A stretch of 64,000 nt of DNA from Escherichia phage vB_EcoM_TH18. The notes beneath the pieces are model-generated. The model did no database searches and had not been told where the DNA came from. It saw only the letters and a program-made list of their open reading frames with translations. Location: the sequence record ON075799. One strand, written 5' to 3'. This document shows positions 134 to 13,754 of this stretch, piece after piece. The translations under genes were made by a program, and so were the position numbers. Each line of letters opens with the position of its first letter. Positions within the stretch are counted from its first letter, which is position 1.

Positions 134-568
134 TTACTCTTCTGGTGTATCCCAATCGAGATGATTATGGAGAAACTTCCTCACGTACTCCCTTGCATCC
201 GTTTCTTGTGTGTGGTCATCTGCCCACATTTTAGCCACATTCCCAGCCGCTTCGTAGAGTTCCCTCTCAAAAGCGGTTAGTCCTGGGAGAATATTTACCA
301 AGAGTTTTTCACTCTCTGAGATATTTTGTGGGTCAAGTGTCATGCTGGGGTCAATTAAGGTTTTCCAACCAGACCCAGAAAATTTCTGTATTTCAAGAGA
401 TTTCCTTGTGCAACTTACAAAATATTTTGTGGTATCTTGTTTAAGCGACCCAAAAATAAATTTACCACCGTTCCAACTCTTCCATGATATATCTATAGAA
501 CACCCCAGAGACAGGAAGTGAATATCCACTAACATGTCGAAAACTTTTAATTTACTTTGCGTGCTCAT
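134..568 (-). CDS. hypothetical protein
   Basis: 144-aa ORF, overlaps start region of next minus gene in operon-like fashion. Confidence 0.5.
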   Translation of the reverse strand: MSTQSKLKVFDMLVDIHFLSLGCSIDISWKSWNGGKFIFGSLKQDTTKYFVSCTRKSLEIQKFSGSGWKTLIDPSMTLDPQNISESEKLLVNILPGLTAFERELYEAAGNVAKMWADDHTQETDAREYVRKFLHNHLDWDTPEE

Positions 569-1988
569 CTAAATTTACAGCCCTTCCAAAAGGTGGTACA
601 AATTTATTATTTCCGCGACCACAAATAACCCAAAGAATATCCCATTTGCGTCCCCAATCTTTTTTCTTGTGGCTTAAATCCTCTATATATCCGTCTGTAA
701 AAATAATAACGTCTTTTGCATCAAAAATGTTATTTTCAATATACTCAAAAGCTGATGCTGCAAGAGTCCCACCAGTGGAATTTACTTTATAATCAAGCAT
801 TTCCTTAATATTTTCGTGTGTATAAACTTTAACCTCTCCGACTTTTGTTGACCAACAGAACAATGTCACGCGAAAAACTCGGTAAAGCTGGCATAATCCT
901 ACAATTTCTCCGAAGATTTTGTCTAAATTTGCCTTCGAAATTGATCCAGATACATCGAAGCCAATAACTATATCTATAGTATTATCGTACTCTCTTCCTG
1001 GTAAAACGATATGCTGTTTTTTGCCGATAGCTCCGTACTGTCGAAGTGCCTGTGTCATAGATCCAGACCTACGAGATGGCTTCCTGTATGTCAGGTTAGA
1101 CTTAATCCGAGAAAGCATACGCTGTTTGATTATCTGAAGATAATTTATGTGTGGTTTACGCATCCTCGCAATAACGTCACGTACCTCTTTCGGCCCCTCT
1201 CCTCCCGCTGCTTCCATTGCTGCTTCGATAAGACCAGATGACCACGACATATTATCATCTTTTTCTGCCTGGTTTGGCACTGGGTGAGGATCTTCATATC
1301 CCAGGGTATTACTGTCCTGATCATAATCCCCTATGTGTGTACCCATAGGTTTGCCAATAGACGGTTGGCCTTTGTTTATGAGACTGTAAATCTCCTCTGC
1401 TGTCATGCCGTGGAAATTAAAATCACAATAGCAATAAGCCATAAACCCAAACTCTTTATCTTTGTCAAAGGTTGTCTGTTTCCCTGTTGGGAAGAAACAC
1501 ATCTGGGTTGAGCGCGGTCCGAGATCAGACACCACCAAATCTGTATTGATATAGTGATCCGCTGCTGTGTTGTAGGTTTTAGAATCAAATGCCTTTCCAC
1601 GGGATAGATGGTCATTTGTAATATGACGTAGCTCGTGCATAAGAATAACAACAACCTCTTTGGGTGTCTTCTTACGGTAAAATACGTTCACATAGTCTTT
1701 ATAGTCATCTTTGTCTTGTTGAGACATTGTTGGGTGGTTATCCACACGTTCAAATACCTTCTTTTTCCTTTCTTCAGGCATACCCATAATAAACTCAGGG
1801 TTGAAGTAGAGGTTTTTGTGATCAGTGGCTGCTGTTGGCAACCATTTCCAGTTCGCAACTAAAGGAAGAGAACTTAACAAAGTACCGTAGAATGGTCGGT
1901 ACTTTAAAAGAGCTATTCGTGCAGATTGGATAACTTTTACAGCATCCTTCTCTAATCTGGCAATCATTTCATATTCGTCTTTTTGCAT
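552..1988 (-). CDS. vWA-domain protein with N-terminal HExxH metallopeptidase-like domain (CobT-like partner of MoxR/CobS ATPases)
   Basis: 'HELRH' zinc-binding-like motif and 'DVSGSIS' MIDAS (DxSxS) motif; RBS GGAGA upstream of ATG. Confidence 0.65.
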   Translation of the reverse strand: MQKDEYEMIARLEKDAVKVIQSARIALLKYRPFYGTLLSSLPLVANWKWLPTAATDHKNLYFNPEFIMGMPEERKKKVFERVDNHPTMSQQDKDDYKDYVNVFYRKKTPKEVVVILMHELRHITNDHLSRGKAFDSKTYNTAADHYINTDLVVSDLGPRSTQMCFFPTGKQTTFDKDKEFGFMAYCYCDFNFHGMTAEEIYSLINKGQPSIGKPMGTHIGDYDQDSNTLGYEDPHPVPNQAEKDDNMSWSSGLIEAAMEAAGGEGPKEVRDVIARMRKPHINYLQIIKQRMLSRIKSNLTYRKPSRRSGSMTQALRQYGAIGKKQHIVLPGREYDNTIDIVIGFDVSGSISKANLDKIFGEIVGLCQLYRVFRVTLFCWSTKVGEVKVYTHENIKEMLDYKVNSTGGTLAASAFEYIENNIFDAKDVIIFTDGYIEDLSHKKKDWGRKWDILWVICGRGNNKFVPPFGRAVNLDEHAK

Positions 1989-2499: not shown

Positions 2500-3296
2500 T
2501 AAACCACCTTATTCAGCATAGCTGTGATTTTTGGTAAACTCATTTTCGTATTGATCATGAGTTGTGTTAATGCTGTTTCCATCTTTTCAGAAACAATAAT
2601 AAAATTATCTTTTGCGAACCCTAGTTCCAAATCCATAATAAGAATAGGTTTTGGTGTTTTTGTTAACTTTTCGCCTGTTAGAGAACAGGTGTTTCTTGAA
2701 TATTTAGCCTTAAATTGTGCATAAGTAACGCTAACATTCATACCTGCTTCTGCAAATGTTTTGCAGTAGTTTGCGTATGCAAGTGCAATCTCAACATCAT
2801 CAGGAAGAGATTTTTCTTTCATCTCTTCAACCTGCTCATCAATAATTACATTCTCTGTCTCTTTCATATCTTTTTCCGTAGGTATATATTTCAGTTTTAA
2901 CTTTTCCAGATGGTCTTTTGACATATTCAACATCATTCCTTGGACGATATCCATGTCAAGCGGATCTGCAATCGTTAGAGCTTTCTTTTTGTCTACAAGA
3001 AAATCTTTTAACTGGTTTGCTCTCTTACCGACTACACAAACGTTTCCACGAACATACCCTTTTTTGTCATCTATTCGTTCCACAGATGGGTAGAGAGGGT
3101 CATTAGGTGTTGCAGAAAAAGGTAGGCCTGTGTAATCACAAACACCTTTCCCAAGTAATCCTTTACCCATCATAAACCAGTCATCTTCTGTCAGATTAAA
3201 CTCTATACCCCTTGCTTTGGTATTTCTCTTTTTGAAAAAGAGTCGTGTTTTGAGATGCCTTATCTCTTTGGTTGTAAACTCTTCATTCCAGTCCAT
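2499..3296 (-). CDS. putative homing-endonuclease-like protein (HNH-type variant), free-standing
   Basis: motif 'GIEFNLTEDDW...CDYTG...PSVERIDDKKGYVRGNVCVV' resembles phage HNH-family nucleases; assignment from memory. Confidence 0.3.
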   Translation of the reverse strand: MDWNEEFTTKEIRHLKTRLFFKKRNTKARGIEFNLTEDDWFMMGKGLLGKGVCDYTGLPFSATPNDPLYPSVERIDDKKGYVRGNVCVVGKRANQLKDFLVDKKKALTIADPLDMDIVQGMMLNMSKDHLEKLKLKYIPTEKDMKETENVIIDEQVEEMKEKSLPDDVEIALAYANYCKTFAEAGMNVSVTYAQFKAKYSRNTCSLTGEKLTKTPKPILIMDLELGFAKDNFIIVSEKMETALTQLMINTKMSLPKITAMLNKVV

Positions 3297-3360
3297 ACAG
3301 AATATCTCTGTCGCTTAACTTGTGTTCGTAGTATCTCACAAATTTTCAGTTTGTCAAGTG

Positions 3361-3389
3361 TTGACTTTGATTTTTTAGTTCTGTACATT
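3361..3389 (+). promoter_or_regulatory. sigma70-like promoter for rightward early block
   Basis: TTGACT-N17-TACATT in divergent intergenic region 3297-3425. Confidence 0.4.
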
Positions 3390-3425
3390 CCCCAGAGTTA
3401 ATGAAAGTTTTCTTAGAGGCCAGCT

Positions 3426-4292
3426 ATGATGAAGAATCTGACGGATTATGAAGGGTGTTTTTATTTTGATGACTATCTGCGCTCCACGAGATCTAATAAA
3501 ATAGATTTTGATTATGGTGGGGTATTCCGTGAAGCCCTTATAAGGGAAGTTGAAAGTCACCAACATGAACCAAACCCTTTAATGGAAATCGTAAAACATG
3601 CTCTACTTATGTGTTTTGATACCCGAGATAGGGAATGTTACTGGAAATATTATGTTGAAGCTGACGAGCGTGCTCACATGGCAAGTGTAAACTTAAAGCA
3701 TGAGTTTCCAAGATATGATGTTACTTGTGGGCAAATAACAATCTCTTTCCGAGGCTTTAATTATGGCATGTGTTTAGCAGGATCATTGTCTGCACGAACA
3801 CAAAAATTCCTGTCTGTTTTGTCCCGATTGGGGCATTGGGATGGTAATATGTTTTCCATAAAGGCTTCCTATGTTAGAACAAGCTCGGATATTCTCCGCA
3901 TCAGGGAGATTAACTCCAGTTGCGGATCCTTTTTTCTGGCAGGTTGTTATGGAATGCTTTACCAAAGCAAGATGTATGATTATGCAGGTCATGCTGCAAT
4001 TAAGATAACCAACACGCCAAGCGTAGAGAATAAGAAATCGCACTACTACTTGGTGTGTAATACCCAAGAAGTAATGTATCATCGTGTTGTAGAAAAAGAA
4101 CTAAAAGAGCTTATCTTGGGAGAGATCCCTACCCAGGAGGAACGCTTAATGATAGAGATGGCTGGGTACAAAGGAGAATTTTTTCTTGATTCTCTTGTAG
4201 ATTTTGATAATATCGGTATAAAACCCTTTAATATGAAAGAGGCATATGAATGGTACAATCGAAGTCTGTCCCCAGTAACATTCAAGATTTAA
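3426..4292 (+). CDS. hypothetical protein
   Basis: 288-aa ORF, RBS AGAGG upstream. Confidence 0.55.
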   Translation: MMKNLTDYEGCFYFDDYLRSTRSNKIDFDYGGVFREALIREVESHQHEPNPLMEIVKHALLMCFDTRDRECYWKYYVEADERAHMASVNLKHEFPRYDVTCGQITISFRGFNYGMCLAGSLSARTQKFLSVLSRLGHWDGNMFSIKASYVRTSSDILRIREINSSCGSFFLAGCYGMLYQSKMYDYAGHAAIKITNTPSVENKKSHYYLVCNTQEVMYHRVVEKELKELILGEIPTQEERLMIEMAGYKGEFFLDSLVDFDNIGIKPFNMKEAYEWYNRSLSPVTFKI

Positions 4293-4561
4293 GACCTCAT
4301 CAGGAGTTGGCTTTAGCTATAAAGTTGGCCTCTGAAAACCATCTTAAGCAGAAAGATCGTGGTGGAATGCCATACATTCTTCACCCATTAAGGGTGATGC
4401 ATGAACTTGGTAATGATGACCTACAGCTAATGGCAATTGGTGTCCTTCACGATATTCTTGAGGATACTAAAATTACAGCTTACGATTTGGTAAGGTTAAG
4501 GAAATACCATGAAATGCATCTTAAACTTGTTGATGCAAGAAAAAGATTTGAGGGGAAATAA
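4250..4561 (+). CDS. SpoT/Mesh1-like HD-domain protein (small alarmone-hydrolase-like), short form
   Basis: 'PYILHPLRVMHELG...LMAIGVLHDILEDT' matches the RelA/SpoT HD hydrolase signature; start uncertain (overlaps previous ORF). Confidence 0.5.
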   Translation: MVQSKSVPSNIQDLRPHQELALAIKLASENHLKQKDRGGMPYILHPLRVMHELGNDDLQLMAIGVLHDILEDTKITAYDLVRLRKYHEMHLKLVDARKRFEGK

Positions 4562-4776
4562 TGAATGTTTATCAACCACATCCATTTGATCCAAAGAACA
4601 AAGCGGTGATCCACAGAGAATGGGTGGAGAGAAGGAAAACAAACTGCCCTGTTAAAGGTACAGAGGATTACAATAGGTTTTACACAGCAAAGTTTGTTGA
4701 GTATACCTTTATTAACAAAAAGGGTAAGAAAGTGCATGTTGCAGAATACCCTTTATGGATAAAATGGGAGGATTAG
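4561..4776 (+). CDS. hypothetical protein
   Basis: 71-aa ORF, start overlaps upstream stop. Confidence 0.45.
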   Translation: MNVYQPHPFDPKNKAVIHREWVERRKTNCPVKGTEDYNRFYTAKFVEYTFINKKGKKVHVAEYPLWIKWED

Positions 4777-4777
4777 G

Positions 4778-4990
4778 ATGTATTGTAAACAGCAATATAC
4801 CCACAAAGGGACAATCCAAAACAAAGATTTCGGTTGGGTGTGGGAAGAAAAGTTAAAAGATGAAGGAAACTATTGGGTATCTCAAGATATGCACTCCGCA
4901 TCGGGTAAGAAGGCAAAATACCGTAAGAGAGACGGTAAACGAGTGGGTGGTGATGATTATCTTGATTTAGAATCTATTAAGGAGTTGTAA
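4778..4990 (+). CDS. hypothetical protein
   Basis: 70-aa ORF. Confidence 0.4.
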   Translation: MYCKQQYTHKGTIQNKDFGWVWEEKLKDEGNYWVSQDMHSASGKKAKYRKRDGKRVGGDDYLDLESIKEL

Positions 4991-4991
4991 A

Positions 4992-5348
4992 ATGGCACAG
5001 TGGAAACATCGACTTGATTTACGTGATATCTGGAAAGGTAATCCAGTAGAAGGTAAGGTAGAGCCTTGGGCAGATGATAATATTCACCTGTTTGTAGATA
5101 TGCTTGTAAAAAGAGTAAAACGACTTTTACCAAAGCAAACTGATGAAGAGAATGCTGACTTCGATGGGTGGTTGTATGATATTCTTGAAGAAATGCAGCA
5201 TATCCTCACATATGAAGAATATTTGGAAATCTGTAGCAAAGAGGATAACCCCAACCTTATCGTGAGTCCTCTACAGCAGTTCAATCTGGCCTTGGATGAG
5301 TTCTACGACTGGTGCGATGAAAACAGAGTTTGGGTGGATAAGTGGTAA
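4992..5348 (+). CDS. hypothetical protein
   Basis: 118-aa ORF. Confidence 0.5.
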   Translation: MAQWKHRLDLRDIWKGNPVEGKVEPWADDNIHLFVDMLVKRVKRLLPKQTDEENADFDGWLYDILEEMQHILTYEEYLEICSKEDNPNLIVSPLQQFNLALDEFYDWCDENRVWVDKW

Positions 5349-5584
5349 AACCTCTTGATTTTTCAGAGAGAGCGGAGTATTTAAAAACCGTTGTTAGAGC
5401 GAGGATGACACGACGACAATGGTTTTTAGTTTTTGGTGCAGAAAGAGTAGATAATTTTTCTGCCAAAGACCTTGCATCAAGCATTATCAATCTGTATGCT
5501 GATATTGAATCAGCAGATATAGACAGTATCATTGAAAGTTATCTTGAGCAGAAGAACGATTTAAGGAACGAGACGAATGTCTAG
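5342..5584 (+). CDS. hypothetical protein
   Basis: 80-aa ORF. Confidence 0.45.
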   Translation: MVKPLDFSERAEYLKTVVRARMTRRQWFLVFGAERVDNFSAKDLASSIINLYADIESADIDSIIESYLEQKNDLRNETNV

Positions 5585-6785
5585 TAGAAATATTTTTGAA
5601 GATCATCGTGTTACACTCCGTGATATTCCAAGCCTTATGAAATTTTGTAAGAAGGCAAACAAAGCACTTATGATGTTTGGTGGTGCTGGGCTTGGTAAGA
5701 GTCAAGTCATGAAGCAAGTTGCCAATGAGATGTTTGGTGAACGAGATGATAATCTCGTTGATTTTCGTCTTGCGGATAAAGATCCGACAGACGTAGTAGG
5801 TGTGCAGATTCCTGTAACAGACGATAATGGGAAAACACGTACAGTCTATGCGCTACCAGATTTCTGGCCAGAAGATCCAGATTGGGAAGGCATCATTTTC
5901 CTTGATGAACTTTTACATGCTGATAACTACTTACAGAAAGTGGCTTTCCAGATTGTTTTGGATCATAAAATTGGTAAGTACACCTTTCCAAAAGGCGCAG
6001 TTTTTGCAGCGGCAGGAAACCGTCCTGGTGATGGTACGGCAGTGACCATGATGGAAGCACCTTTGGCTAACCGTTTTATTGTTGTGGAACTTGATTACGA
6101 TGCCTCTGTGTGGATGCAGGATTATGCGTTGCGTAAAAATGTGCATCCATCAGTAATTGGTTTTATCCAGGCCAATCCCGATAAACTGGAAAACTTTGAG
6201 GCCATGTATGAGATTAACAGCCCTGCATATGCCACACCACGCACTTGGGTTACTGCAAGTGATATTCTGTATGCGTATGAGGATGGTGATCTTACTTCTC
6301 GCCTTGCAATGGCTGCTTTGCAAGGGTGTATTGGTGGGCCATTAATGAAAGAGTTATGGTATTACCATACTCGCGTTGCTGGTATGGTTCCCATTGAGAA
6401 AGTAATGGACGGTTCAATTAAAGAGCATACTGGGTCTGATAGCTCTGATGTGTTGTGGACGTTAGGATCACAGGGTTGCATCTGGCTACGTAAGGCTATG
6501 AAGAATACCAACTACACAGATGATCAGATTATTGACTTCTCAGCCAATTTCTTGCAATATCTGTATGATAACTTTGGTAAAGATGATGCTCATTCCAACC
6601 GTGATTTTGTATCATCTGTCTTCATGACGTTTATTAATGACAGCTCTACAGGGAAGGGTATTTTGTTAGATGGTCTTCGTGACAGACTGCCAGCGAAGTT
6701 ACTTAAGAAGTATCCTGTTGTTATGCAGATTATTACTGAATATCATAAGAACTTTGCAAAAGATGTAGATGCAATTTTAAATTAA
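5577..6785 (+). CDS. CobS/MoxR-like AAA+ ATPase
   Basis: Walker A 'GGAGLGKSQ', Walker B 'IIFLDELLH'; size and layout of phage CobS-like ATPases. Confidence 0.7.
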   Translation: MSSRNIFEDHRVTLRDIPSLMKFCKKANKALMMFGGAGLGKSQVMKQVANEMFGERDDNLVDFRLADKDPTDVVGVQIPVTDDNGKTRTVYALPDFWPEDPDWEGIIFLDELLHADNYLQKVAFQIVLDHKIGKYTFPKGAVFAAAGNRPGDGTAVTMMEAPLANRFIVVELDYDASVWMQDYALRKNVHPSVIGFIQANPDKLENFEAMYEINSPAYATPRTWVTASDILYAYEDGDLTSRLAMAALQGCIGGPLMKELWYYHTRVAGMVPIEKVMDGSIKEHTGSDSSDVLWTLGSQGCIWLRKAMKNTNYTDDQIIDFSANFLQYLYDNFGKDDAHSNRDFVSSVFMTFINDSSTGKGILLDGLRDRLPAKLLKKYPVVMQIITEYHKNFAKDVDAILN

Positions 6786-6826
6786 TAGCAGCAGCCTTAA
6801 TGTCTGCTTTTTATAAGGATACCTAA

Positions 6827-7243
6827 ATGAATGATAGGTGGATAAAAACACCCAATGGTGTTGAAGATCTTGATATTGGTAGATGGCTTGTCGTCTTGGC
6901 AGATGGTGAGATCGGCATTTGTGAATCCTATCAAGGCCATAACAGTATTGTTCATGTCATCAACGGATCTTTCTACTTTGATTGTGAACCTGTTATTGCT
7001 TACATGCCAATTCCAGCTATCAGTGATCTTCTGAAAGATCATCTTAAAACAGAGGCTAATTTTAAGACCGCTGGGGCTAAGGTGATGGATCTTGATGATT
7101 GGAATTTCGGTGTCCAAGCGGCTATTTACAGCCCTGAAGATGGAAATGGATACTGGTGTCCTAACGATAACTATGAATCTGACGTTTCCGTGTGGGATAA
7201 AAAACCAGACTGGGCGACACATGTGGTATGGTATAACCGTTGA
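6827..7243 (+). CDS. hypothetical protein
   Basis: 138-aa ORF. Confidence 0.5.
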   Translation: MNDRWIKTPNGVEDLDIGRWLVVLADGEIGICESYQGHNSIVHVINGSFYFDCEPVIAYMPIPAISDLLKDHLKTEANFKTAGAKVMDLDDWNFGVQAAIYSPEDGNGYWCPNDNYESDVSVWDKKPDWATHVVWYNR

Positions 7244-7419
7244 TGACAAAACATAAGTTTAAGAAAGACCAGCTACATGAGAAATGGTGGTTTGAGAGAT
7301 CCGATATGGTTATGGCTGGGTACACCTATAAAAATAGGCGTGTGTTTGTTGTTTGTGCTAAAAATAAAAGCGAGGCATTGGAAAGTATGAATGCCTTCCT
7401 TGAAAGGAGTTGTGAATGA
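7243..7419 (+). CDS. small ORF (58 aa), not in ORF track
   Basis: ATG overlaps upstream stop (TGATG) and its stop overlaps next ATG (ATGA); fills an otherwise empty 170-bp gap. Confidence 0.3.
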   Translation: MTKHKFKKDQLHEKWWFERSDMVMAGYTYKNRRVFVVCAKNKSEALESMNAFLERSCE

Positions 7420-7598
7420 AGGTTAAAATGATTTCTGATTTTTCCGATGTTGCTGGATATCCAAAAACAGGAGATATTCTTGAAGTAAGAGAAGAAATCT
7501 TTAATGGTAGTTTTCTTGAGTGTTACTCTTGCGAATGGAATGGGAAAAGACTTGATATCTATCCATACGAATGCGAAGAGGTATCAGACAATGCTTAA
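7416..7598 (+). CDS. hypothetical protein
   Basis: 60-aa ORF, translationally coupled. Confidence 0.4.
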   Translation: MKVKMISDFSDVAGYPKTGDILEVREEIFNGSFLECYSCEWNGKRLDIYPYECEEVSDNA

Positions 7599-8112
7599 GT
7601 ATAAAGTTGGTTGCTTAATAGAGGCAGCACTTAAAAGGGATGTTAATGTGATAGCTCATGGTTGTAATACATTTTGCACCATGGGGTCTGGAATTGCTAA
7701 AGAAATAAAGAATGCATTCCCAAAAATGTATGCTGAAGATTTAAAGACAGAGAAAGGTGATCGAACAAAACTGGGCAGTTATACTTGGGCTGTCATGAAC
7801 GAAGGTAAGCTGGCGGGTTTTAATTTGTACACACAATACGGCTATAATGGGCGTAGAATGGGTGTTAGAGATTTAAATTATAACGCCCTTTACGATTCTT
7901 TAGCAGCAATGCGAGATTGTTTGCAAAGGCACACAGATGGCTTTATGTCTGATTATAAGATCGGGCTGCCAAAAATAGGTGCTGGGCTAGCAGGTGGGGA
8001 TTGGAAAATCATAGAAACTATGATAGAATCTGTTCTCCATGATTGTGATGTGACAATTTATGTTTTAAATAAAGAGGAGATCCCAGATGGCAAAAGAGAA
8101 CATGCATCCTGA
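7591..8112 (+). CDS. macro-domain protein (ADP-ribose binding/hydrolase family)
   Basis: 'VNVIAHGCN...MGSGIAKEI' and 'IGLPKIGAGLAGGDW' macro-domain signatures; ATG at 7591 with GAGG RBS. Confidence 0.65.
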   Translation: MLKYKVGCLIEAALKRDVNVIAHGCNTFCTMGSGIAKEIKNAFPKMYAEDLKTEKGDRTKLGSYTWAVMNEGKLAGFNLYTQYGYNGRRMGVRDLNYNALYDSLAAMRDCLQRHTDGFMSDYKIGLPKIGAGLAGGDWKIIETMIESVLHDCDVTIYVLNKEEIPDGKREHAS

Positions 8113-8281
8113 TATTGCTTACGATAAAATTGCGGAAGCAATTAAAAGTATTGACCCAAAAATTGTAGATGTGCTGGATCGTAAAGATGCTATGAGCGCA
8201 ATTTATGACGCTTGCTATGAAGTTCTGTGGCAAGATGGTATGGAAGATATTGACGAGGTAGGGGCCAATGATGGAGAGTAA
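8087..8281 (+). CDS. hypothetical protein
   Basis: 64-aa ORF. Confidence 0.4.
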   Translation: MAKENMHPDIAYDKIAEAIKSIDPKIVDVLDRKDAMSAIYDACYEVLWQDGMEDIDEVGANDGE

Positions 8282-8654
8282 ATCTGTGACAGGCTTATCG
8301 AAAGATACATATATTTGTGGGAAGAGATATGCTGGTATCCTGTTTGGTGCTGAACCCTATTTTGGTTTTGGTTATACAAAAGATGTTCGATGCATTTGTG
8401 GATACTTAGCAGATGATCTCAAAAAGCGTGGATTTAGTGGTTCTAGTATCAGGACTTCTGTTGTCGAAAGTCTGATTATGCACGATGGAGAAATCTATGC
8501 TATTACGATGAACAGCGCCTATCGCTTAGGTAGCCTTCAATTACAACATTTTATCTCCAGTCCTGTGTGGAGTCAGGAAATCACGAAACTTCTTGCCCAG
8601 GCAACTCTTGGTGTGACTTTTATTAATAAGGAAGATAGTAATGCAAGCAACTAA
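8268..8654 (+). CDS. hypothetical protein
   Basis: 128-aa ORF. Confidence 0.45.
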   Translation: MMESKSVTGLSKDTYICGKRYAGILFGAEPYFGFGYTKDVRCICGYLADDLKKRGFSGSSIRTSVVESLIMHDGEIYAITMNSAYRLGSLQLQHFISSPVWSQEITKLLAQATLGVTFINKEDSNASN

Positions 8655-9675
8655 GTACCCAAGCACTAGTCAATTTCGCAATGTTATCCGAGCGGTTAAT
8701 GACCGTCTGACTTATGATGGTCGTGATGAGAATGGCAATATAAAGCGTAAGGTTGCCTCTCCAGATCAATATCTCATTTCTTATGTAGGAACAGTTAAAA
8801 TTCACGGGACTAATTGCCGTGTAGTCTTTAATTCTGAAAATGAGGTTGTATACCAGTCCAAAGAACGCGTTTTGTCTTTGGAGGAAGACAATTATGGGTT
8901 TATGGCCTTTATGGTTGAAAAAGACCATAAACCCCTGCTGGGGCAAGTCAAGCAGATCTGCGAAGATCGGGGTATTGAATTTAAGTTCCCAGTAGAAATC
9001 GCTGGGGAATTTGCAGGGAAAGGTATCCAGAAAGGTGTTGCGGTATCTGAAATCATGCCTTTCTTTACTATTTTCCGTGTTGCAGTGGGGAAAGAAAATG
9101 ACCATCGGAAATGGCTAGCTTTAGACGATATTCTTGGCATTGGATTACCAGAACAACGTATTTATAATATTTTAACTTTTGGTAAGTGGGAACTGGATAT
9201 TCCTTTTAACATGCCAGAGACAGTGCAATCAGAAATTGCACAGATTACCGAAGGTGTGGAAAAAGAGTGCCCAGTAGGTAAATATTTTGGCGTATCTGGT
9301 GTTGGTGAGGGTGTGGTATGGACACCTAAAGATCGTCACTTGGCACATGTTTCTTCACTTTGGTTTAAAGTGAAAGGGCAAAAACATTCTGTCTCTAAAG
9401 TGAAAACCCTAGCTGCTGTTGATCCTGTGAAACTGCAATCTATCAAAGATTTTGTGGAGTATGCAGTTACTGAGAACCGTTTACGACAAGGGTTGCAAGA
9501 AATTGGATTGGACATCGCATCTCTGGGGGCATTTATCGCATGGGTTAACCGCGATATCAACAAAGAAGAAGCAGATGTGCTGGAAGCCAACTCTCTTTCT
9601 ATGAGAGATGTGGCGAAGTTCACAACAAACAAAGCCCGTAGTTGGTATATGGAACAACTTAACGAGGTGTCTTAA
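8641..9675 (+). CDS. RNA ligase, Rnl2-like (nucleotidyltransferase)
   Basis: motif I 'KIHGTN', motif IV 'EGVVW', motif V 'FKVKG'. Confidence 0.7.
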   Translation: MQATKYPSTSQFRNVIRAVNDRLTYDGRDENGNIKRKVASPDQYLISYVGTVKIHGTNCRVVFNSENEVVYQSKERVLSLEEDNYGFMAFMVEKDHKPLLGQVKQICEDRGIEFKFPVEIAGEFAGKGIQKGVAVSEIMPFFTIFRVAVGKENDHRKWLALDDILGIGLPEQRIYNILTFGKWELDIPFNMPETVQSEIAQITEGVEKECPVGKYFGVSGVGEGVVWTPKDRHLAHVSSLWFKVKGQKHSVSKVKTLAAVDPVKLQSIKDFVEYAVTENRLRQGLQEIGLDIASLGAFIAWVNRDINKEEADVLEANSLSMRDVAKFTTNKARSWYMEQLNEVS

Positions 9676-9846
9676 TGGCTTTAATTGTTTCTACAACACA
9701 CACAACTGTAGAACGTGGTATGTTAAAGGCAAAGTGTGACACAATTATTTTTGAAGATGAAGAACAGGGCAGAAAGTTTATTGAAGACAATAAAACATTT
9801 GTGTACTCTGTTCAGAAAGCACCTATTGTTAAAGAGAAACAAAACA

Positions 9847-10188
9847 ATGATTACAATTAATGGTAATACAATTTCTGGAAACTATACCAATGGTAGTATC
9901 TCTATCACTACTAAGGGTGATAATGTATATATCAATGGTGATTTAGTTCACACCACAAGCGATAAAAACATCACAGTTATTATCAAAGGTGATGCTAAAG
10001 AGGTACGTACAACATCAGGTGGTATCAATGTCTATGGAAATGTCTCTAATGGCGTGATCTCAACATCTGGGGATATTAATGTTGAAAAAGATATCTTAGG
10101 CAATGTGTCTTCAGTGTCTGGGGATGTCTGCGCAAATACAATCCATGGAAGTGTGAACACAATATCTGGAGATATTACCCATCGTTAA
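9847..10188 (+). CDS. small repeat protein with beta-solenoid-like periodicity
   Basis: 113 aa of reiterated 'SG(D/G)INV...GNVS' units; start chosen at internal ATG 9847. Confidence 0.45.
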   Translation: MITINGNTISGNYTNGSISITTKGDNVYINGDLVHTTSDKNITVIIKGDAKEVRTTSGGINVYGNVSNGVISTSGDINVEKDILGNVSSVSGDVCANTIHGSVNTISGDITHR

Positions 10189-10202
10189 CAGAAAGCCCCT
10201 TT

Positions 10203-10748
10203 ATGGGGCTTATTTGTCTGGAGTTAGTTTTGAAAATAAGATCTTTATTATTTGCTGTTTGCTGTGCACTTTCTCTGTCTATTACCCCTGTTCTAGCCAA
10301 AGAAAGTGCAAAGAAGCCCAGAGTTCTTCATGTTTGTAAGAAGAACGACACAGAGCTTAATATTCTTGCCTGCAATATGTATAAAGAAGGAAGAGGCGAA
10401 GGCGATTATGGAATGATGGGTGTTGCGTTTGTCACGTTGAACAGAAAGGATGACAAAAATTTCCCTCATACTATCAAGAAAGTAGTTTATCAACTTGGGC
10501 AATTCTCTTGGACATTCGGTGGACAATCCTTTAAAGTCTATGAAAAGGACAGATGGTTGAGAGCTAGATTTTATGCTAAAATCTTGATGAGGTTGCATAA
10601 AGACCACAAAAGTTTATACAAAGCTCTTGACTACACAAAATCAGCAACGTACTATCATGCAACTACTGTTAGGCCATCTTGGGCAAAAGTTATGGTGAAA
10701 ACAGTGAAGGTTGGGAATCATATTTTTTACAAGCATCCTGACGTATAA
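10203..10748 (+). CDS. secreted SleB-like cell-wall hydrolase (Hydrolase_2 family), endolysin candidate
   Basis: N-terminal signal-like hydrophobic segment; 'KEGRGE...GMMGVAFVTLNR...FPHTIKKVVYQLGQFS' SleB signature. Confidence 0.6.
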   Translation: MGLICLELVLKIRSLLFAVCCALSLSITPVLAKESAKKPRVLHVCKKNDTELNILACNMYKEGRGEGDYGMMGVAFVTLNRKDDKNFPHTIKKVVYQLGQFSWTFGGQSFKVYEKDRWLRARFYAKILMRLHKDHKSLYKALDYTKSATYYHATTVRPSWAKVMVKTVKVGNHIFYKHPDV

Positions 10749-10768
10749 CTAGTTCATAGAGGTATTGA

Positions 10769-12769
10769 ATGATTATTCAAAGATCTGACAACAAAGTTCA
10801 GGTAACTGGGAACGTAGAAAGATACCAAGCATCAATTGCAATGAATCCTGAGACGTTCAGTATTCTTATCGACGGAATTTATAAAGATAAACCTTTAGCA
10901 GCAGTACGAGAGCCTCTCTTTAACGCTGTAGATGCCCATACAGAGGCAGGGTGTTCTGATAAACCAATCATCATCCACTCACCAACAGACTTGGAGCCTT
11001 GGTATTCTGTTAAGGATACAGGGTTAGGTATGGATCATGAGATGGTAACACGTACATTCATGATGATTGGTGAGTCCACAAAAAGAAACAGTAATGATCT
11101 GGTTGGTGCGAAAGGTATTGGATCAAAAGCACCTCTTGCAGTCACAGATATGTTCACAGTTGTTTCTGTTAAAGACGGAGTGAAAACAACATATTCTGTT
11201 CACAAAAACAGCGGAATACCAGAGGTTGTACCTTTATTCTCTTGTGAAACAACAGAGGAGAATGGTGTAGAAATTAAATTTAACGTAAACACTTGGGAAA
11301 CAGGAGTTTATCGTCAGGCCATTGTAAAATGCCTTCGCTATGCTAAATTTCCATATATTATTAATGATCCTTTTGTTAAAACGCAGATTGAAGATCGTAC
11401 TTATCCTGTTCAGTATCGTTATGAGGATGAAGAGACTGGCTGGGTTCTTGAGATGTATAGTAGCATGTCGAGCAACGCTGATAGTGTTGTTATCATGGGG
11501 CAACAACCATATCTCTCCGATTATCTCTCAACTCGTAAAGAACTGCCCATGATGACGGTATCTATCCCTATTGGGGATTGTAATGTAGATCCAGGCCGAG
11601 AATGGACAGTGGAAGGAAAGAATGACGGAGGATTCCGTGATAAACTTGAAAATTTTGTGACTAAAGCTATCCGACTCCGCGGAGAAGAAATCACAAAAGA
11701 ATTAAGCGATCTGCCAACTTTAAAAGCAGTTCTTGAACATATGAAGTATGTTGGTGGTTATTTCGCTACAAAGTATGGTGCTGCATTTATTGCAAATAAG
11801 TTCAAGAATTATACTGATGGTTCTTACATAGACCACTGTGAAACATATGGTGGCGAAGGCTCACGCCGTGGTAAGGATGAGAAATATTCATACGCAGAGT
11901 TGATGAATGGTCATCCACTGGTTTACAATGATGATCACAAGTATGTGCGCTCTAAATGTAACTGGCTTGCAGAGAAGTTCGGTAAGAGATCGTTTATAAC
12001 CGATGCTGATTACGCTCTGTCCTTATACAGTGATAAATTCTTTGAAGGGATGATTTTCAAGTTATCTGAGCTTGAAAAACGACCAGTGCAAAAAGCAGAT
12101 AAAAAGTATGGTGGCTATGGTTATTACGAACCTGGTCATAAAGTTTGGATAATTAACCAAGATGGCCTCGTAGATGTAACACGTATTTCCCGTGCTCAAT
12201 TCGAGGATATTGAGACGGCTATGGTCTACTGGGGTGGGCAGGTGAAAGGATTATGCCCGTTAGGATACGTTTCCAATCTTAGAACAGTTTGGAGAAAGCA
12301 ACCACCAACATTTCTTAAGAATCTTGGTGTAGCTGGTAAGTTATATATTGTGCCTTTAAACAGATCAAGTTGGCTGCCAGATGAGGCGCGGGTTATAACT
12401 GAGGAGGATATCCATGCTCTTGCAAAAACTAATCTTCTTGAATATCATTTATACCAAGAAGTTGGGAAAGATCATGAGTATCATAACATTGTTAAAGAGC
12501 TTAGCTATTTTGGTGTGGTGGTAGCTAGTTTCCCAAAATGGGAGATGAAGGTAAACATACCCAGTTATTATTCAGTCCCTGGCTACGAAGATAGCCGTGA
12601 GAAAGCATTAGGGATGATTGAGTCTCGGAAGAGAATTGGTAAAAAGCTGCTACAGATTAAGAAAGATCGCTACCCATTGTTAAAATACATTGATGTTAAG
12701 CATTTCAATACTCCAGAGATGCTAGAGTATCGTAAATTTATTGACAGCAAAGGAGAAAAAGATGAGTAA
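10769..12769 (+). CDS. rIIA: rIIA-like protein with N-terminal GHKL (Hsp90/histidine-kinase-like) ATPase domain
   Basis: Bergerat motifs 'EPLFNAVDA', 'DTGLGMD', 'GAKGIGSKA'; followed by rIIB-like gene. Confidence 0.6.
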   Translation: MIIQRSDNKVQVTGNVERYQASIAMNPETFSILIDGIYKDKPLAAVREPLFNAVDAHTEAGCSDKPIIIHSPTDLEPWYSVKDTGLGMDHEMVTRTFMMIGESTKRNSNDLVGAKGIGSKAPLAVTDMFTVVSVKDGVKTTYSVHKNSGIPEVVPLFSCETTEENGVEIKFNVNTWETGVYRQAIVKCLRYAKFPYIINDPFVKTQIEDRTYPVQYRYEDEETGWVLEMYSSMSSNADSVVIMGQQPYLSDYLSTRKELPMMTVSIPIGDCNVDPGREWTVEGKNDGGFRDKLENFVTKAIRLRGEEITKELSDLPTLKAVLEHMKYVGGYFATKYGAAFIANKFKNYTDGSYIDHCETYGGEGSRRGKDEKYSYAELMNGHPLVYNDDHKYVRSKCNWLAEKFGKRSFITDADYALSLYSDKFFEGMIFKLSELEKRPVQKADKKYGGYGYYEPGHKVWIINQDGLVDVTRISRAQFEDIETAMVYWGGQVKGLCPLGYVSNLRTVWRKQPPTFLKNLGVAGKLYIVPLNRSSWLPDEARVITEEDIHALAKTNLLEYHLYQEVGKDHEYHNIVKELSYFGVVVASFPKWEMKVNIPSYYSVPGYEDSREKALGMIESRKRIGKKLLQIKKDRYPLLKYIDVKHFNTPEMLEYRKFIDSKGEKDE

Positions 12770-13754
12770 TCCTTTATTCATGTCACGTCGTGAAGCTCGT
12801 GAATACGCTAAGAAAAATAATATGGTGGTTGTTGATCGTGGTCTAAATGTTCTAAAACGCTGGACAGTTGCACCCAAAAAAGGAATGCCGACAACCAAAA
12901 AGGCTAAGGAAGATCCTGTAGGTATTATGAAGCCAGTGCATACTCTTGCACAACCAATTGTCCTTGTGACCCAAGACAATATCCATATCACTTTGTTAAA
13001 TGGTGAACAATATACTCTAAATAGTAGCAGCCCCATCTTTAAAGAAGTTGGTGTTATCCTTTGGACAGGAGGGATAGATGCTGCTGTACAACGTATTTTA
13101 AAAGAGAAAGAAGCAGAAAAGAAAAAGACCATTGATTTTGGCGATAATTTAGTGTTGATAGATAGTGTTTTGTATTGGCACGGTCAAAAACAGGAAAGCA
13201 GTATTGCTAAGCGAATCATTAAAGATATTGAGAATGATTGCTTTGACGAACGATATGTCAAATTCATGCAGAAGTTGCTACACAACCCGTCGTATGCTTC
13301 TGTTAAAATGCTTTATGATTTTGTAAAACATAATGATCTGGAGATCCTTGAAAACGGAAATATTAAGGCATACAAGAAAATTAAGGCAACTGTAGATGGA
13401 CCACGAGATTGCTATACAGGTAAAGTTCCTAATTATAAAGGGCAAGTTATTTCCATGCCGCGTAATATGGTTGAGGATAATCCCAATAGAACATGTAGCC
13501 AAGGTTTGCATGTTGCATCTATTGACTATGCGGCTACCTTTGAGAAGACTTCAAAGGAACTTGTAGAAGTATCTGTGGATCCGGCAGATATTGTCAGTGT
13601 CCCTTATGACTATAACCAGAAAAAATGCCGTTGCTGTCGCTATGAAGTTCTGACAGGAACACCAAAACCGGTAGGTGCGCCAGATATTATTGTCATTGGT
13701 GTACAGGGTAAAATTCTTGAAGAGATTTATCTACAAGAATCTAAGGAGGACTGA
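12762..13754 (+). CDS. rIIB: rIIB-like protein
   Basis: C-terminal 'MPRNMVEDNPNRTCSQGLHVAS...DIVSVPYDYN' resembles T4 rIIB (from memory); ATG overlaps rIIA stop, RBS AAGGAG. Confidence 0.6.
   Translation: MSNPLFMSRREAREYAKKNNMVVVDRGLNVLKRWTVAPKKGMPTTKKAKEDPVGIMKPVHTLAQPIVLVTQDNIHITLLNGEQYTLNSSSPIFKEVGVILWTGGIDAAVQRILKEKEAEKKKTIDFGDNLVLIDSVLYWHGQKQESSIAKRIIKDIENDCFDERYVKFMQKLLHNPSYASVKMLYDFVKHNDLEILENGNIKAYKKIKATVDGPRDCYTGKVPNYKGQVISMPRNMVEDNPNRTCSQGLHVASIDYAATFEKTSKELVEVSVDPADIVSVPYDYNQKKCRCCRYEVLTGTPKPVGAPDIIVIGVQGKILEEIYLQESKED

What the first reader, a model, noticed from the sequence alone, without database searches (positions are those of the whole stretch)
7591..9675. Macro-domain protein and Rnl2-type RNA ligase in one early operon
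A macro-domain protein (7591..8112) and an Rnl2-like RNA ligase (8641..9675, motifs KIHGTN / EGVVW / FKVKG) flank two small unknown ORFs. Together they look like a nucleic-acid repair or de-modification unit, for example against host anticodon nucleases or ADP-ribosylating toxins. No polynucleotide kinase/phosphatase partner was recognised.
Basis: partly seen in the sequence, partly recalled or inferred. Interest (0 to 1): 0.5.

Follow-up and report, generated by a model that had tools for sequence, protein, structure and literature searches.

The report
Phage macrodomain beside two-part RNA ligase
An E. coli phage carries, side by side in one tightly packed gene string, a DarG-like ADP-ribose-removing enzyme and an Rnl2-like RNA ligase that has its own small helper protein; both are known kinds of phage counter-defence genes and most likely work separately rather than as one repair pathway.

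Summary
The window is Escherichia phage 18-1-2 (Avunavirus). 7591-8112 encodes a stand-alone macrodomain protein. 8641-9675 encodes an intact Rnl2-like ATP-dependent RNA ligase. Two small overlapping ORFs lie between them, on the same strand.

- The macro protein is a homologue of T4 Tk.4 (36% identity), named AdfM in a 2025 preprint as the T4 factor needed to resist DarTG2.
- The ligase matches T4 Rnl2 best by fold and by profile, but scores far below the Rnl2 equivalog cut-off.
- The 128-aa "unknown" ORF (8268-8654) is the ligase's own accessory beta-barrel. It is fused to the N-terminus of the ligase in other phages. The database label "methyltransferase" is unfounded.
- No kinase, phosphatase or Rnl1 partner is detectable. 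The ligase therefore probably seals 3'-OH/5'-phosphate nicks directly.
- Macro-ligase linkage is confined to one ligase clade. That clade also keeps SleB and helicase neighbours. An inner branch and about 65 other loci lack the linkage. In Vequintavirus the whole 3.4-kb block is absent.

Best reading: two independent counter-defence modules in one accessory cassette. Both genes are already annotated in RefSeq. The modest novelty is the split or fused ligase helper domain.

The parts
7591..8112 (+). Stand-alone macrodomain protein (173 aa) of the DarG/TARG1/Poa1p class, a member of the T4 Tk.4 (AdfM) family. Predicted ADP-ribosyl hydrolase.
   Evidence: Pfam Macro above cut-off. phrog_335 E 1e-61. 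36% identity to T4 Tk.4, E 4e-25. PADLOC DarG E 3.6e-11. NCBIfam DarG NF048014 E 5.7e-10 over the macro part. H23, N26, the M31-G32-x-G34 loop, N78/Y80/Q82 and the P127-x-I129-G130-x-G132 loop are invariant in 14 family members including T4.
8087..8281 (+). 64-aa acidic ORF of unknown function. It overlaps the macro stop by 26 nt and the next ORF by 14 nt.
   Evidence: AGGAG-type Shine-Dalgarno sequence upstream. phrog_35483 E 5e-38. Homologues seen only in Av-05 (L006) and Raoultella phage Ro1 (L016). No Pfam or PADLOC hit.
8268..8654 (+). 128-aa accessory protein of the ligase: a six-stranded beta-barrel followed by two helices. It is a separate gene here and is fused to the ligase N-terminus in other phages.
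8641..9675 (+). Rnl2-like ATP-dependent RNA ligase (344 aa): nucleotidyltransferase domain with motifs I-V intact, plus a C-terminal helical domain.
   Evidence: PF09414 above cut-off. T4 Rnl2 is the only PDB sequence hit. AF2 model pLDDT 91. Foldseek top hits are full-length T4 Rnl2 (2hvr/2hvq), E 7e-12. TIGR02307 Rnl2 aligned over residues 48-324 to model positions 27-305 of 326, but only 39 bits against a cut-off of 197. K53, H55, E123, E223, K243 and K245 are invariant in 54 homologues.
9675..9860 (+). 61-aa ORF whose start codon overlaps the ligase stop codon by one base. It is conserved next to the ligase in Vequintavirinae-type phages. Function unknown.
   Evidence: phrog_9816 E 2e-30. 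Present directly downstream of the ligase in 9 of the 80 viral loci and in L088 and L089.
9847..10188 (+). 113-aa repeat (beta-solenoid-like) protein, the last gene before the terminator-like hairpin. Function unknown.
   Evidence: Conserved downstream of the ligase in 8 loci and in L088, L089 and L091. Only a weak Pfam FapA match, E 0.024.
10193..10211 (+). Terminator-like GC-rich hairpin (AAGCCCC-TTTAT-GGGGCTT) followed by a T-rich tail. Likely end or attenuation point of the transcription unit.
   Evidence: It is the terminator-like site with the most G-C pairs in the scan (7 pairs, 5 of them G-C), and it lies between genes. Sequence checked.

Best explanation
The stretch is part of a variable accessory cassette (about 6827-10188) in the long rightward operon of an Avunavirus phage. 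The cassette holds two separate counter-defence modules.

Module 1 is the macrodomain protein (7591-8112). It belongs to the T4 Tk.4/AdfM family and acts like the DarG antitoxin. It binds ADP-ribose attached to nucleic acid and hydrolyses the glycosidic link. The most likely substrate is the ADP-ribosyl-thymidine that DarT2-type toxins put on single-stranded phage DNA, so that replication can go on.

Module 2 is a two-gene RNA ligase, made of the 128-aa beta-barrel protein (8268-8654) and the Rnl2-like ligase (8641-9675). The ligase is adenylylated on Lys53, transfers AMP to a 5'-phosphate and seals 3'-OH/5'-phosphate nicks in base-paired RNA. Nicked tRNA is the most likely target. The beta-barrel probably helps substrate binding or targeting.

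The phage has no recognisable end-healing kinase or phosphatase. The nicks it repairs are therefore probably those left by metal-dependent host nucleases (Toprim or HNH type), which need no healing.

Shown: the gene structures, the homologies, the intact motifs, the fusion, and the distribution across phages. Inferred: the substrates, the independence of the two modules, and the early timing of expression.
For: Macro:
- It is in the same PHROG as T4 Tk.4 (phrog_335) and is 36% identical to it, E 4e-25.
- It matches DarG models in PADLOC and NCBIfam.
- Knockout of T4 tk.4 sensitises T4 to DarTG2.

Ligase:
- It passes the Pfam cut-off and its motifs are invariant.
- Its best structural and profile match is T4 Rnl2, including the C-terminal domain.
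- Relatives sit in RNA-repair cassettes with cREC, Rnl1, an AAA_33 kinase and a DNA ligase, and are fused to a metallophosphoesterase.

Accessory protein:
- It is homologous to N-terminal extensions of the ligase in fusion proteins that include Salmonella phage SSBI34 and Acinetobacter phage ABPH49. Further fused proteins were found (ligase domain confirmed).
- It lies immediately upstream of the ligase wherever it is a separate gene.

No healing partner:
- tblastn with T4-type Pnkp, Rnl1, small RNA kinases, cREC and metallophosphoesterase finds nothing in the window or in the whole Av-05 genome.
- Pfam finds none in the operon or in other non-structural ORFs.

Healing can be unnecessary: the Toprim tRNase P2-OLD leaves 5'-P/3'-OH ends, and a single nick was resealed by T4 Rnl1 and by Rnl2 with no healing step (PMC12445682).

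Independence of the modules:
- The macro family is in 2961 phage records and the ligase in 153.
- About 65 of the 80 ligase loci have no such macro within 10 kb.
- An inner branch of the macro-linked clade lacks the macro.
- Vequintavirus keeps a macro paralogue elsewhere and has no ligase of this family.

Cassette context: the flanking genes are known or reported counter-defence genes. rIIA/rIIB act against RexAB. The MoxR ATPase of Bas54 was reported necessary to overcome the predicted system DS-28; the window's MoxR is about 51% identical to those of other BASEL Vequintavirus phages.
Against: - Within one ligase clade the macro gene has stayed next to the ligase across Escherichia, Salmonella, Klebsiella, Erwinia and Acinetobacter phages, at ligase identities down to 46%. 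In the two fused-ligase phages it lies immediately upstream, and in SSBI34 the stop and start overlap. This could reflect functional coupling rather than inherited gene order.
- The AdfM result is from one preprint. It concerns a protein only 36% identical, and no enzymology was reported.
- TARG1 Asp125 is not conserved (Ala134 here), and the equivalent of TARG1 Lys84 could not be placed. The chemistry and the substrate are therefore unproven.
- Iyer et al. argue that phage macrodomains mostly target soluble ADP-ribose derivatives (PMC9503650).
- To my knowledge, the in vivo role of T4 Rnl2 itself is not established.
- No experiment exists for any protein of this phage.
Confidence: 0.6

Rival explanations
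1. Coupled pathway. The macro protein and the ligase act in succession on the same damaged nucleic acid. For example, the macrodomain removes ADP-ribose from RNA or DNA ends or bases modified by a host ADP-ribosyltransferase, and the ligase, with its beta-barrel partner, then reseals the strand.
For: The macro gene is adjacent to, or within about 1.9 kb upstream of, the ligase throughout one clade that spans phages of several host genera. In SSBI34 and ABPH49 it lies directly upstream of the fused ligase gene. All genes between the two overlap, which is compatible with coupled translation. From my own knowledge, TARG1-class macrodomains have been reported to remove ADP-ribose from phosphorylated nucleic-acid ends.
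Against: The same clade also keeps SleB and the helicase as neighbours, so the adjacency can be plain synteny. Ligases of an inner branch (L013, L014, L092) and about 65 other loci have no such macro and pair with Rnl1, a kinase or Pnkp instead. The macro family is about 20 times more widespread than the ligase. T4 tk.4 gives its DarTG2 phenotype as a single gene.
Confidence: 0.15
2. The macro protein handles small molecules rather than DNA adducts. It would hydrolyse soluble ADP-ribose derivatives: ADP-ribose-1''-phosphate or its cyclic phosphate from NAD-dependent RNA 2'-phosphate removal, O-acetyl-ADP-ribose, or ADP-ribose-derived immune signals or toxins.
For: Among solved structures, yeast Poa1p, an ADP-ribose-1''-phosphate phosphatase, is second only to the uncharacterised BT1257. 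Iyer et al. propose soluble substrates for most phage macrodomains and describe macro, 2H and KptA in NAD-dependent RNA-end clean-up. The related phage Av-05 also encodes NAMPT and Prs, which indicates pressure on NAD metabolism. In Vibrio phage VPG01 the macro gene lies next to Prs.
Against: No KptA/Tpt1, 2H or sirtuin was found in the operon, and no 2H homologue in the window. From my own knowledge, Rnl2-type ligases do not create 2'-phosphate junctions. The only genetic datum for the family is DarTG2 sensitivity.
Confidence: 0.15
3. The ligase serves phage nucleic-acid metabolism rather than counter-defence. It would seal nicks in RNA-DNA hybrids during replication or process phage RNAs.
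For: No full-size DNA ligase homologous to those next to related ligases was found in the window or in Av-05. The ligase lies in the same operon as replication genes (helicase, polymerase further on).
Against: From my own knowledge, Rnl2-type enzymes need ribonucleotides at the 3'-OH side of the nick. The whole block is absent from Vequintavirus phages with the same backbone, so it is dispensable. Relatives sit in classical RNA-repair cassettes.
Confidence: 0.07

Closest known systems
T4 Tk.4 = AdfM (anti-DarT factor, macrodomain), phrog_335
   Same: A stand-alone phage macrodomain of about 155-175 aa. It is 36% identical (E 4e-25), has the same conserved loops, and gives the same ranking of PDB relatives (BT1257 > Poa1p > DarG/TARG1).
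   Different: The genomic context differs: T4 tk.4 lies in the regB-vs-tk cluster. Function is untested here. The window protein has a longer insert after the NLYTQ strand and a C-terminal tail.
DarG antitoxin macrodomain (DarTG toxin-antitoxin) and human TARG1
   Same: Same macrodomain class. It matches the PADLOC and NCBIfam DarG models over the macro part and DarG/TARG1 structures by sequence.
   Different: It has no C-terminal DarT-binding domain and no darT neighbour, and it scores far below the DarG equivalog cut-off (39 bits against 250). TARG1 Asp125 is replaced by Ala.
T4 RNA ligase 2 (RnlB, Rnl2 family, TIGR02307)
   Same: The nucleotidyltransferase motifs I-V are shared. There is a C-terminal helical domain. 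T4 Rnl2 is the best fold match (E 7e-12) and the best profile match, spanning both domains.
   Different: Only 17% identity, and 39 bits against a 197-bit equivalog cut-off. There is an extra conserved N-terminal segment of about 47 aa (S8, Q11, R13 invariant or nearly so). It has a dedicated beta-barrel partner, in trans or fused, which T4 Rnl2 lacks as far as I know.
T4 tRNA repair system (Rnl1 + Pnkp) and the phage cREC / kinase / phosphoesterase / Rnl1 cassettes described by Iyer et al. 2022
   Same: Relatives of this ligase lie inside such cassettes (L013, L014, L092). The presumed purpose, resealing broken tRNA, is the same.
   Different: This phage has no Rnl1, no Pnkp, no small kinase, no cREC and no metallophosphoesterase. 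It can therefore handle only ends that are already 3'-OH/5'-phosphate, unless host enzymes heal them.

Membership tests
Rnl2-type RNA ligase (T4 RnlB; Pfam PF09414, NCBIfam TIGR02307) | Covalent nucleotidyltransferase domain with motif I lysine (KxHGxN) and motifs Ia, III, IIIa, IV and V | tested here: met
   KIHGTN 53-58, R76, GEFAG (E123), F145, EGVVW (E223) and FKVKG (K243, K245) are all invariant or nearly so in 54 homologues. PF09414 scores 40.4 bits against a cut-off of 27.
Rnl2-type RNA ligase (T4 RnlB; Pfam PF09414, NCBIfam TIGR02307) | C-terminal all-helical domain of the Rnl2 type | tested here: met
   The AF2 model is helical from about residue 253 to 343. The Foldseek top hits are full-length T4 Rnl2 with about 370 aligned columns, against 266 for the N-domain-only entry. 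TIGR02307 aligns to model position 305 of 326. The domains were not superposed separately; the whole-chain TM-score is only 0.42.
Rnl2-type RNA ligase (T4 RnlB; Pfam PF09414, NCBIfam TIGR02307) | Score above the curated equivalog cut-off of TIGR02307 | tested here: not met
   39 bits against a cut-off of 197.15. It is a distinct Rnl2-like clade, not an Rnl2 equivalog.
Rnl2-type RNA ligase (T4 RnlB; Pfam PF09414, NCBIfam TIGR02307) | Sealing of 3'-OH/5'-phosphate nicks in duplex RNA | not testable with these tools
   Requires an enzyme assay.
Tk.4/AdfM phage macrodomain family (phrog_335) | Macrodomain with conserved ADP-ribose-binding loops and significant homology to T4 Tk.4 | tested here: met
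   Pfam Macro 23.8 bits against 22. phrog_335 E 1e-61. BLASTP to T4 Tk.4 E 4e-25. The loop residues are invariant in 14 members.
Tk.4/AdfM phage macrodomain family (phrog_335) | Protects the phage from DarTG2 | not testable with these tools
   Known only for T4 tk.4, from a knockout in a preprint.
DarG antitoxin of DarTG systems | Macrodomain plus C-terminal DarT-binding domain, encoded next to darT | tested here: not met
   The protein is 173 aa and matches only the macro part of the models: positions 9-151 of 338 in NCBIfam NF048014 (39 bits against a cut-off of 250), and positions 1-60 of 329 for the best stretch in PADLOC DarG. Its neighbours are small ORFs and the ligase; none of the eight operon proteins scanned gave any other PADLOC hit.
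TARG1-type catalytic mechanism | Catalytic Lys84 and Asp125 (human TARG1 numbering) | tested here: inconclusive
   The position of Asp125 is Ala134 here and Gly in T4 Tk.4. The position of Lys84 could not be aligned with confidence.
T4-type tRNA repair system (Rnl1 + Pnkp) / healing-and-sealing cassettes | A 5'-kinase and a 2',3'-phosphatase or phosphoesterase encoded with the ligase | tested here: not met
   No tblastn match of Pnkp, Rnl1, small kinases, cREC or metallophosphoesterase in the window or in Av-05. No such Pfam domain in the ORFs scanned.
NAD-dependent RNA 2'-phosphate removal (KptA/Tpt1 + 2H + macro) | KptA/Tpt1 or a sirtuin, and a 2H phosphoesterase, in the neighbourhood | tested here: not met
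   No such Pfam family among the operon proteins. Of the 2H cluster representatives, only one weak match (E 0.004) was found, outside the window in the T4-like block of Av-05. Not every ORF of the window was scanned.

The most novel reading that the evidence does not exclude
The macro protein, the beta-barrel protein and the Rnl2-like ligase form one conserved three-part system. It would repair nucleic acid that a host defence has both ADP-ribosylated and broken, or whose ends are capped with ADP-ribose. The macrodomain uncaps, the barrel recognises the lesion, and the ligase seals, with no kinase or phosphatase needed. This would be a new healing-and-sealing logic for phage RNA or DNA repair.
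Probability: 0.1. Interest if true: 0.7.

Novelty: new variant of a known kind. Interest (0 to 1): 0.33.

Why it matters
Both enzyme kinds are known and already annotated, so the finding as written is ordinary. Three points have some value.
- The ligase clade has a dedicated beta-barrel partner, split or fused, that I did not find described in the few papers read here. It is currently mislabelled 'methyltransferase' in PHROGs and RefSeq. Correcting the label and testing the partner would extend the catalogue of RNA ligase architectures.
- A ligase without any healing enzyme fits the recent finding that Toprim tRNases leave directly ligatable ends. That gives a testable role for Rnl2-type ligases, whose function in vivo is, as far as I know, not established.
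- The cassette offers a natural test of whether AdfM-type macrodomains act alone.

Tried and rejected
- **Upstream 288-aa protein as the missing kinase.** RefSeq labels it 'thymidylate kinase'. It has no visible P-loop motif in its sequence and no Pfam hit. Rejected.
- **HD-domain gene as an end-healing phosphoesterase.** It gives only a weak HD_4 (SpoT-like) match, and in this phage it is truncated to 103 aa, against 165 aa in Av-05. Rejected.
- **128-aa ORF as a methyltransferase.** This is the PHROG and RefSeq label. There is no methyltransferase domain. The fold resembles only the non-catalytic RFTS domain of DNMT1. Rejected.
- **Search for T4-type Pnkp, Rnl1, 2H, small kinases, cREC and metallophosphoesterase** in the window and in Av-05. 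Nothing was found.
- **Sensitive iterative HMM for the macro family over the 80 ligase loci.** It stayed at 12 loci.
- **Promoter scan.** Not above chance.
- **Rfam scan of 3000-13000.** Nothing.
- **tRNA scan of the window.** None.
- **Fold search against afdb50.** The library was not available.
- **Mapping of TARG1 Lys84.** Ambiguous.
- **Literature search for a defence-related role of Rnl2.** Only the in vitro OLD result was found.
Full report
**Identity of the window.** Bases 7000-10500 are 100% identical to Escherichia phage 18-1-2 (OK136180.1, positions 7000-10500) and 95.4% identical to Escherichia phage Av-05. Both are Avunavirus, Vequintavirinae. RefSeq already annotates the Av-05 orthologues as 'macro domain-containing protein', 'hypothetical protein', 'methyltransferase' and 'RNA ligase family protein'.

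**The observation.** The four ORFs are there.
- The macro ORF passes Pfam's Macro cut-off narrowly (23.8 bits against 22). It is a strong member of phrog_335 (E 1e-61).
- The ligase passes PF09414 (40 bits against 27) and phrog_548 (E 1e-72).
- The quoted motifs are real: KIHGTN at 53-58, EGVVW at 223-227, FKVKG at 242-246. K53, H55, E123, E223, K243 and K245 are invariant in an alignment of 54 homologues.
- Every gene junction from 7243 to 10188 overlaps by 1-26 nt, and each ORF, including the 64-aa one, has a Shine-Dalgarno-like sequence.
- The first good terminator-like hairpin is at 10193-10211, just after the second small ORF downstream of the ligase.
- Promoter-like matches are at chance level, so 'early' remains an inference.
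- Rfam and tRNA scans found nothing.

**The macro protein.**
- Its nearest solved relatives are BT1257, yeast Poa1p, SCO6735, DarG and TARG1.
- It matches the DarG models of PADLOC (E 3.6e-11) and NCBIfam (E 5.7e-10, macro part only, far below the equivalog cut-off).
- tblastn finds homologues in 2961 of 50,697 phage records, among them T4 tk.4. The pairwise match to T4 Tk.4 is 36% identity, E 4e-25.
- A 2025 preprint found tk.4 to be the single T4 gene depleted on a DarTG2 host. It confirmed this with a clean knockout and named the gene adfM.
- The ADP-ribose-binding loops are invariant between the window protein, T4 Tk.4 and 12 other members.
- TARG1 Asp125 is not conserved (Ala134), and the Lys84 position could not be aligned. 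The chemistry is therefore inferred from family membership, not from catalytic residues.

**The ligase.**
- By sequence it finds only T4 Rnl2 in the PDB (E 0.003, N-domain).
- An AlphaFold model (pLDDT 91) finds full-length T4 Rnl2 first (E 7e-12, about 370 aligned columns). Rnl1, REL1 and Naegleria Rnl5 rank lower.
- The TIGR02307 Rnl2 profile aligns over residues 48-324, but at 39 bits against a 197-bit cut-off.
- It is therefore Rnl2-like in architecture but a separate clade. That clade has 2215 database relatives and occurs in 153 phage records.

**The 128-aa ORF belongs to the ligase.**
- Several ligase homologues are 455-469 aa long (P0038, P0050, P0051, P0053, P0058, P0113).
- Their N-terminal extensions align with the 128-aa protein. 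BLASTP gives E 9e-14, 8e-13 and 5e-8.
- Where the gene is separate it lies directly upstream of the ligase. In one contig it is separated from the ligase only by an inserted HNH endonuclease gene.
- The model (pLDDT 80) is a six-stranded barrel plus two helices.
- A profile search of 1.8 billion representatives finds 149 proteins. Most are small phage-type proteins matching the barrel core, with weak links to DUF6957. BFVD hits are all uncharacterised.

**Is the macro gene linked to the ligase?** I fetched 80 viral loci with ligase homologues at 38-96% identity.
- A Tk.4-type macro lies within 10 kb in 12 of them, and this number is stable under an iterated HMM. Nine are syntenic Vequintavirinae-type phages, two are Vibrio Thalassavirus (macro 4-5 kb away), and one has it 8.6 kb downstream.
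- Other recurrent neighbours are ATP-dependent DNA ligase (22 loci), Rnl1 (16), T4-like Pnkp (9), a 2H-type protein (9, judged from its two H-x-S/T motifs) and an unknown family (13).
- The two named phages with a fused barrel-ligase gene, Salmonella phage SSBI34 and Acinetobacter phage ABPH49, have the macro gene immediately upstream.
- In a neighbour-joining tree of the ligase domain, all macro-linked ligases fall in one clade. An inner branch of that clade (L013, L014, L092) lacks the macro. It carries Rnl1, a small kinase and a DNA ligase; L092 also has a cREC gene and a metallophosphoesterase fused to the ligase.
- The macro-linked clade also retains SleB and the helicase next to the ligase. 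Inherited gene order therefore explains the adjacency as well as functional coupling does.
- In Vequintavirus (Bas57 MaxTheCat) the backbone runs MoxR, one ORF, SleB, rIIA, rIIB, helicase. The whole 6827-10188 block is missing.
- In PMBT16, a 136-kb E. coli phage whose record gives no taxonomy below 'Viruses' (I take it to be Vequintavirus-like), a more distant macro paralogue sits elsewhere.

**End healing.** Neither T4-type Pnkp, Rnl1, small RNA kinases, cREC nor metallophosphoesterase has any match in the window or in the complete Av-05 genome. Pfam scans of the operon and of ten further non-structural ORFs found none. This is not an obstacle. The Toprim tRNase P2-OLD leaves 5'-phosphate/3'-OH ends, and a singly nicked tRNA was resealed by T4 Rnl1 and by Rnl2 without healing (PMC12445682).

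**Conclusion.**
- The domain calls are right, and the DarTG idea for the macro protein is reasonable.
- The 'repair unit' reading is not supported as a coupled pathway, though it is not excluded: I give it about 0.15.
- The better description is an accessory cassette with two counter-defence modules, an AdfM-like macrodomain and a two-part Rnl2-like ligase. The cassette sits among other counter-defence genes, namely a MoxR ATPase (reported for Bas54) and rIIA/rIIB.
- The novelty is modest and lies in the ligase's accessory barrel and in its lack of healing partners.

Noticed in passing
L005 (Av-05 NC_025830.1, about 102.8-114.1 kb), outside the window: The Av-05 record carries a block with T4 gene order: regB, vs.1, vs, tk.4, tk.3-tk.1, tk, rI, and also e, denV and internal head protein genes. 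One 2-kb stretch is 77% identical to T4 at the DNA level. This is either a horizontally acquired Tevenvirinae segment or a chimeric assembly. It would give Av-05 a second macro gene. The 18-1-2 scaffold begins near the position that corresponds to one edge of this block.
   Followed up: partly
window 4250-4561: The SpoT-like HD-domain gene is 103 aa here, against 165 aa in Av-05. Only residues 1-83 align, so the C-terminal half is lost and the gene is probably inactive in this phage.
   Followed up: partly
window 5577-6785 (+) and 552-1988 (-): A MoxR-type AAA ATPase and a divergently placed VWA/metallopeptidase (DUF2201) protein form a conserved pair. The Vequintavirus Bas54 MoxR ATPase was reported as needed to overcome the predicted defence system DS-28. 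The window protein is about 51% identical to the MoxR of other BASEL Vequintavirus phages.
   Followed up: partly
window 3426-4292, 7243-7419, 7416-7598, 8268-8654: The RefSeq/PHROG product names for the Av-05 orthologues look unfounded. 'Thymidylate kinase' is a 288-aa protein with no P-loop and no Pfam hit. 'Baseplate wedge subunit' is 58 aa. 'Exonuclease' is 60 aa. 'Methyltransferase' is the beta-barrel ligase partner.
   Followed up: partly
proteins P0161, P0170, P0242: The barrel core of the 128-aa protein belongs to a wide family of small phage proteins. It also occurs fused to a 6-pyruvoyl-tetrahydropterin synthase-like domain (P0161), and five times over in giant proteins of 1446 and 2582 aa.
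   Followed up: no
L089 661-1155: An HNH homing-endonuclease gene is inserted exactly between the barrel-protein gene and the ligase gene in one metagenomic relative.
   Followed up: no
window 6827-10188 compared with L093 10198-10578: The 3.4-kb block from the 138-aa ORF to the 113-aa ORF is replaced by a single 126-aa ORF in Vequintavirus Bas57, between the conserved MoxR and SleB genes. This marks the site as a variable accessory slot.
   Followed up: yes
window 9847-10188: The 113-aa protein is made of short Gly/Asn/Val-rich repeats and looks like a beta-solenoid, with a weak FapA match. It is conserved downstream of the ligase even in Acinetobacter phage ABPH49.
   Followed up: no
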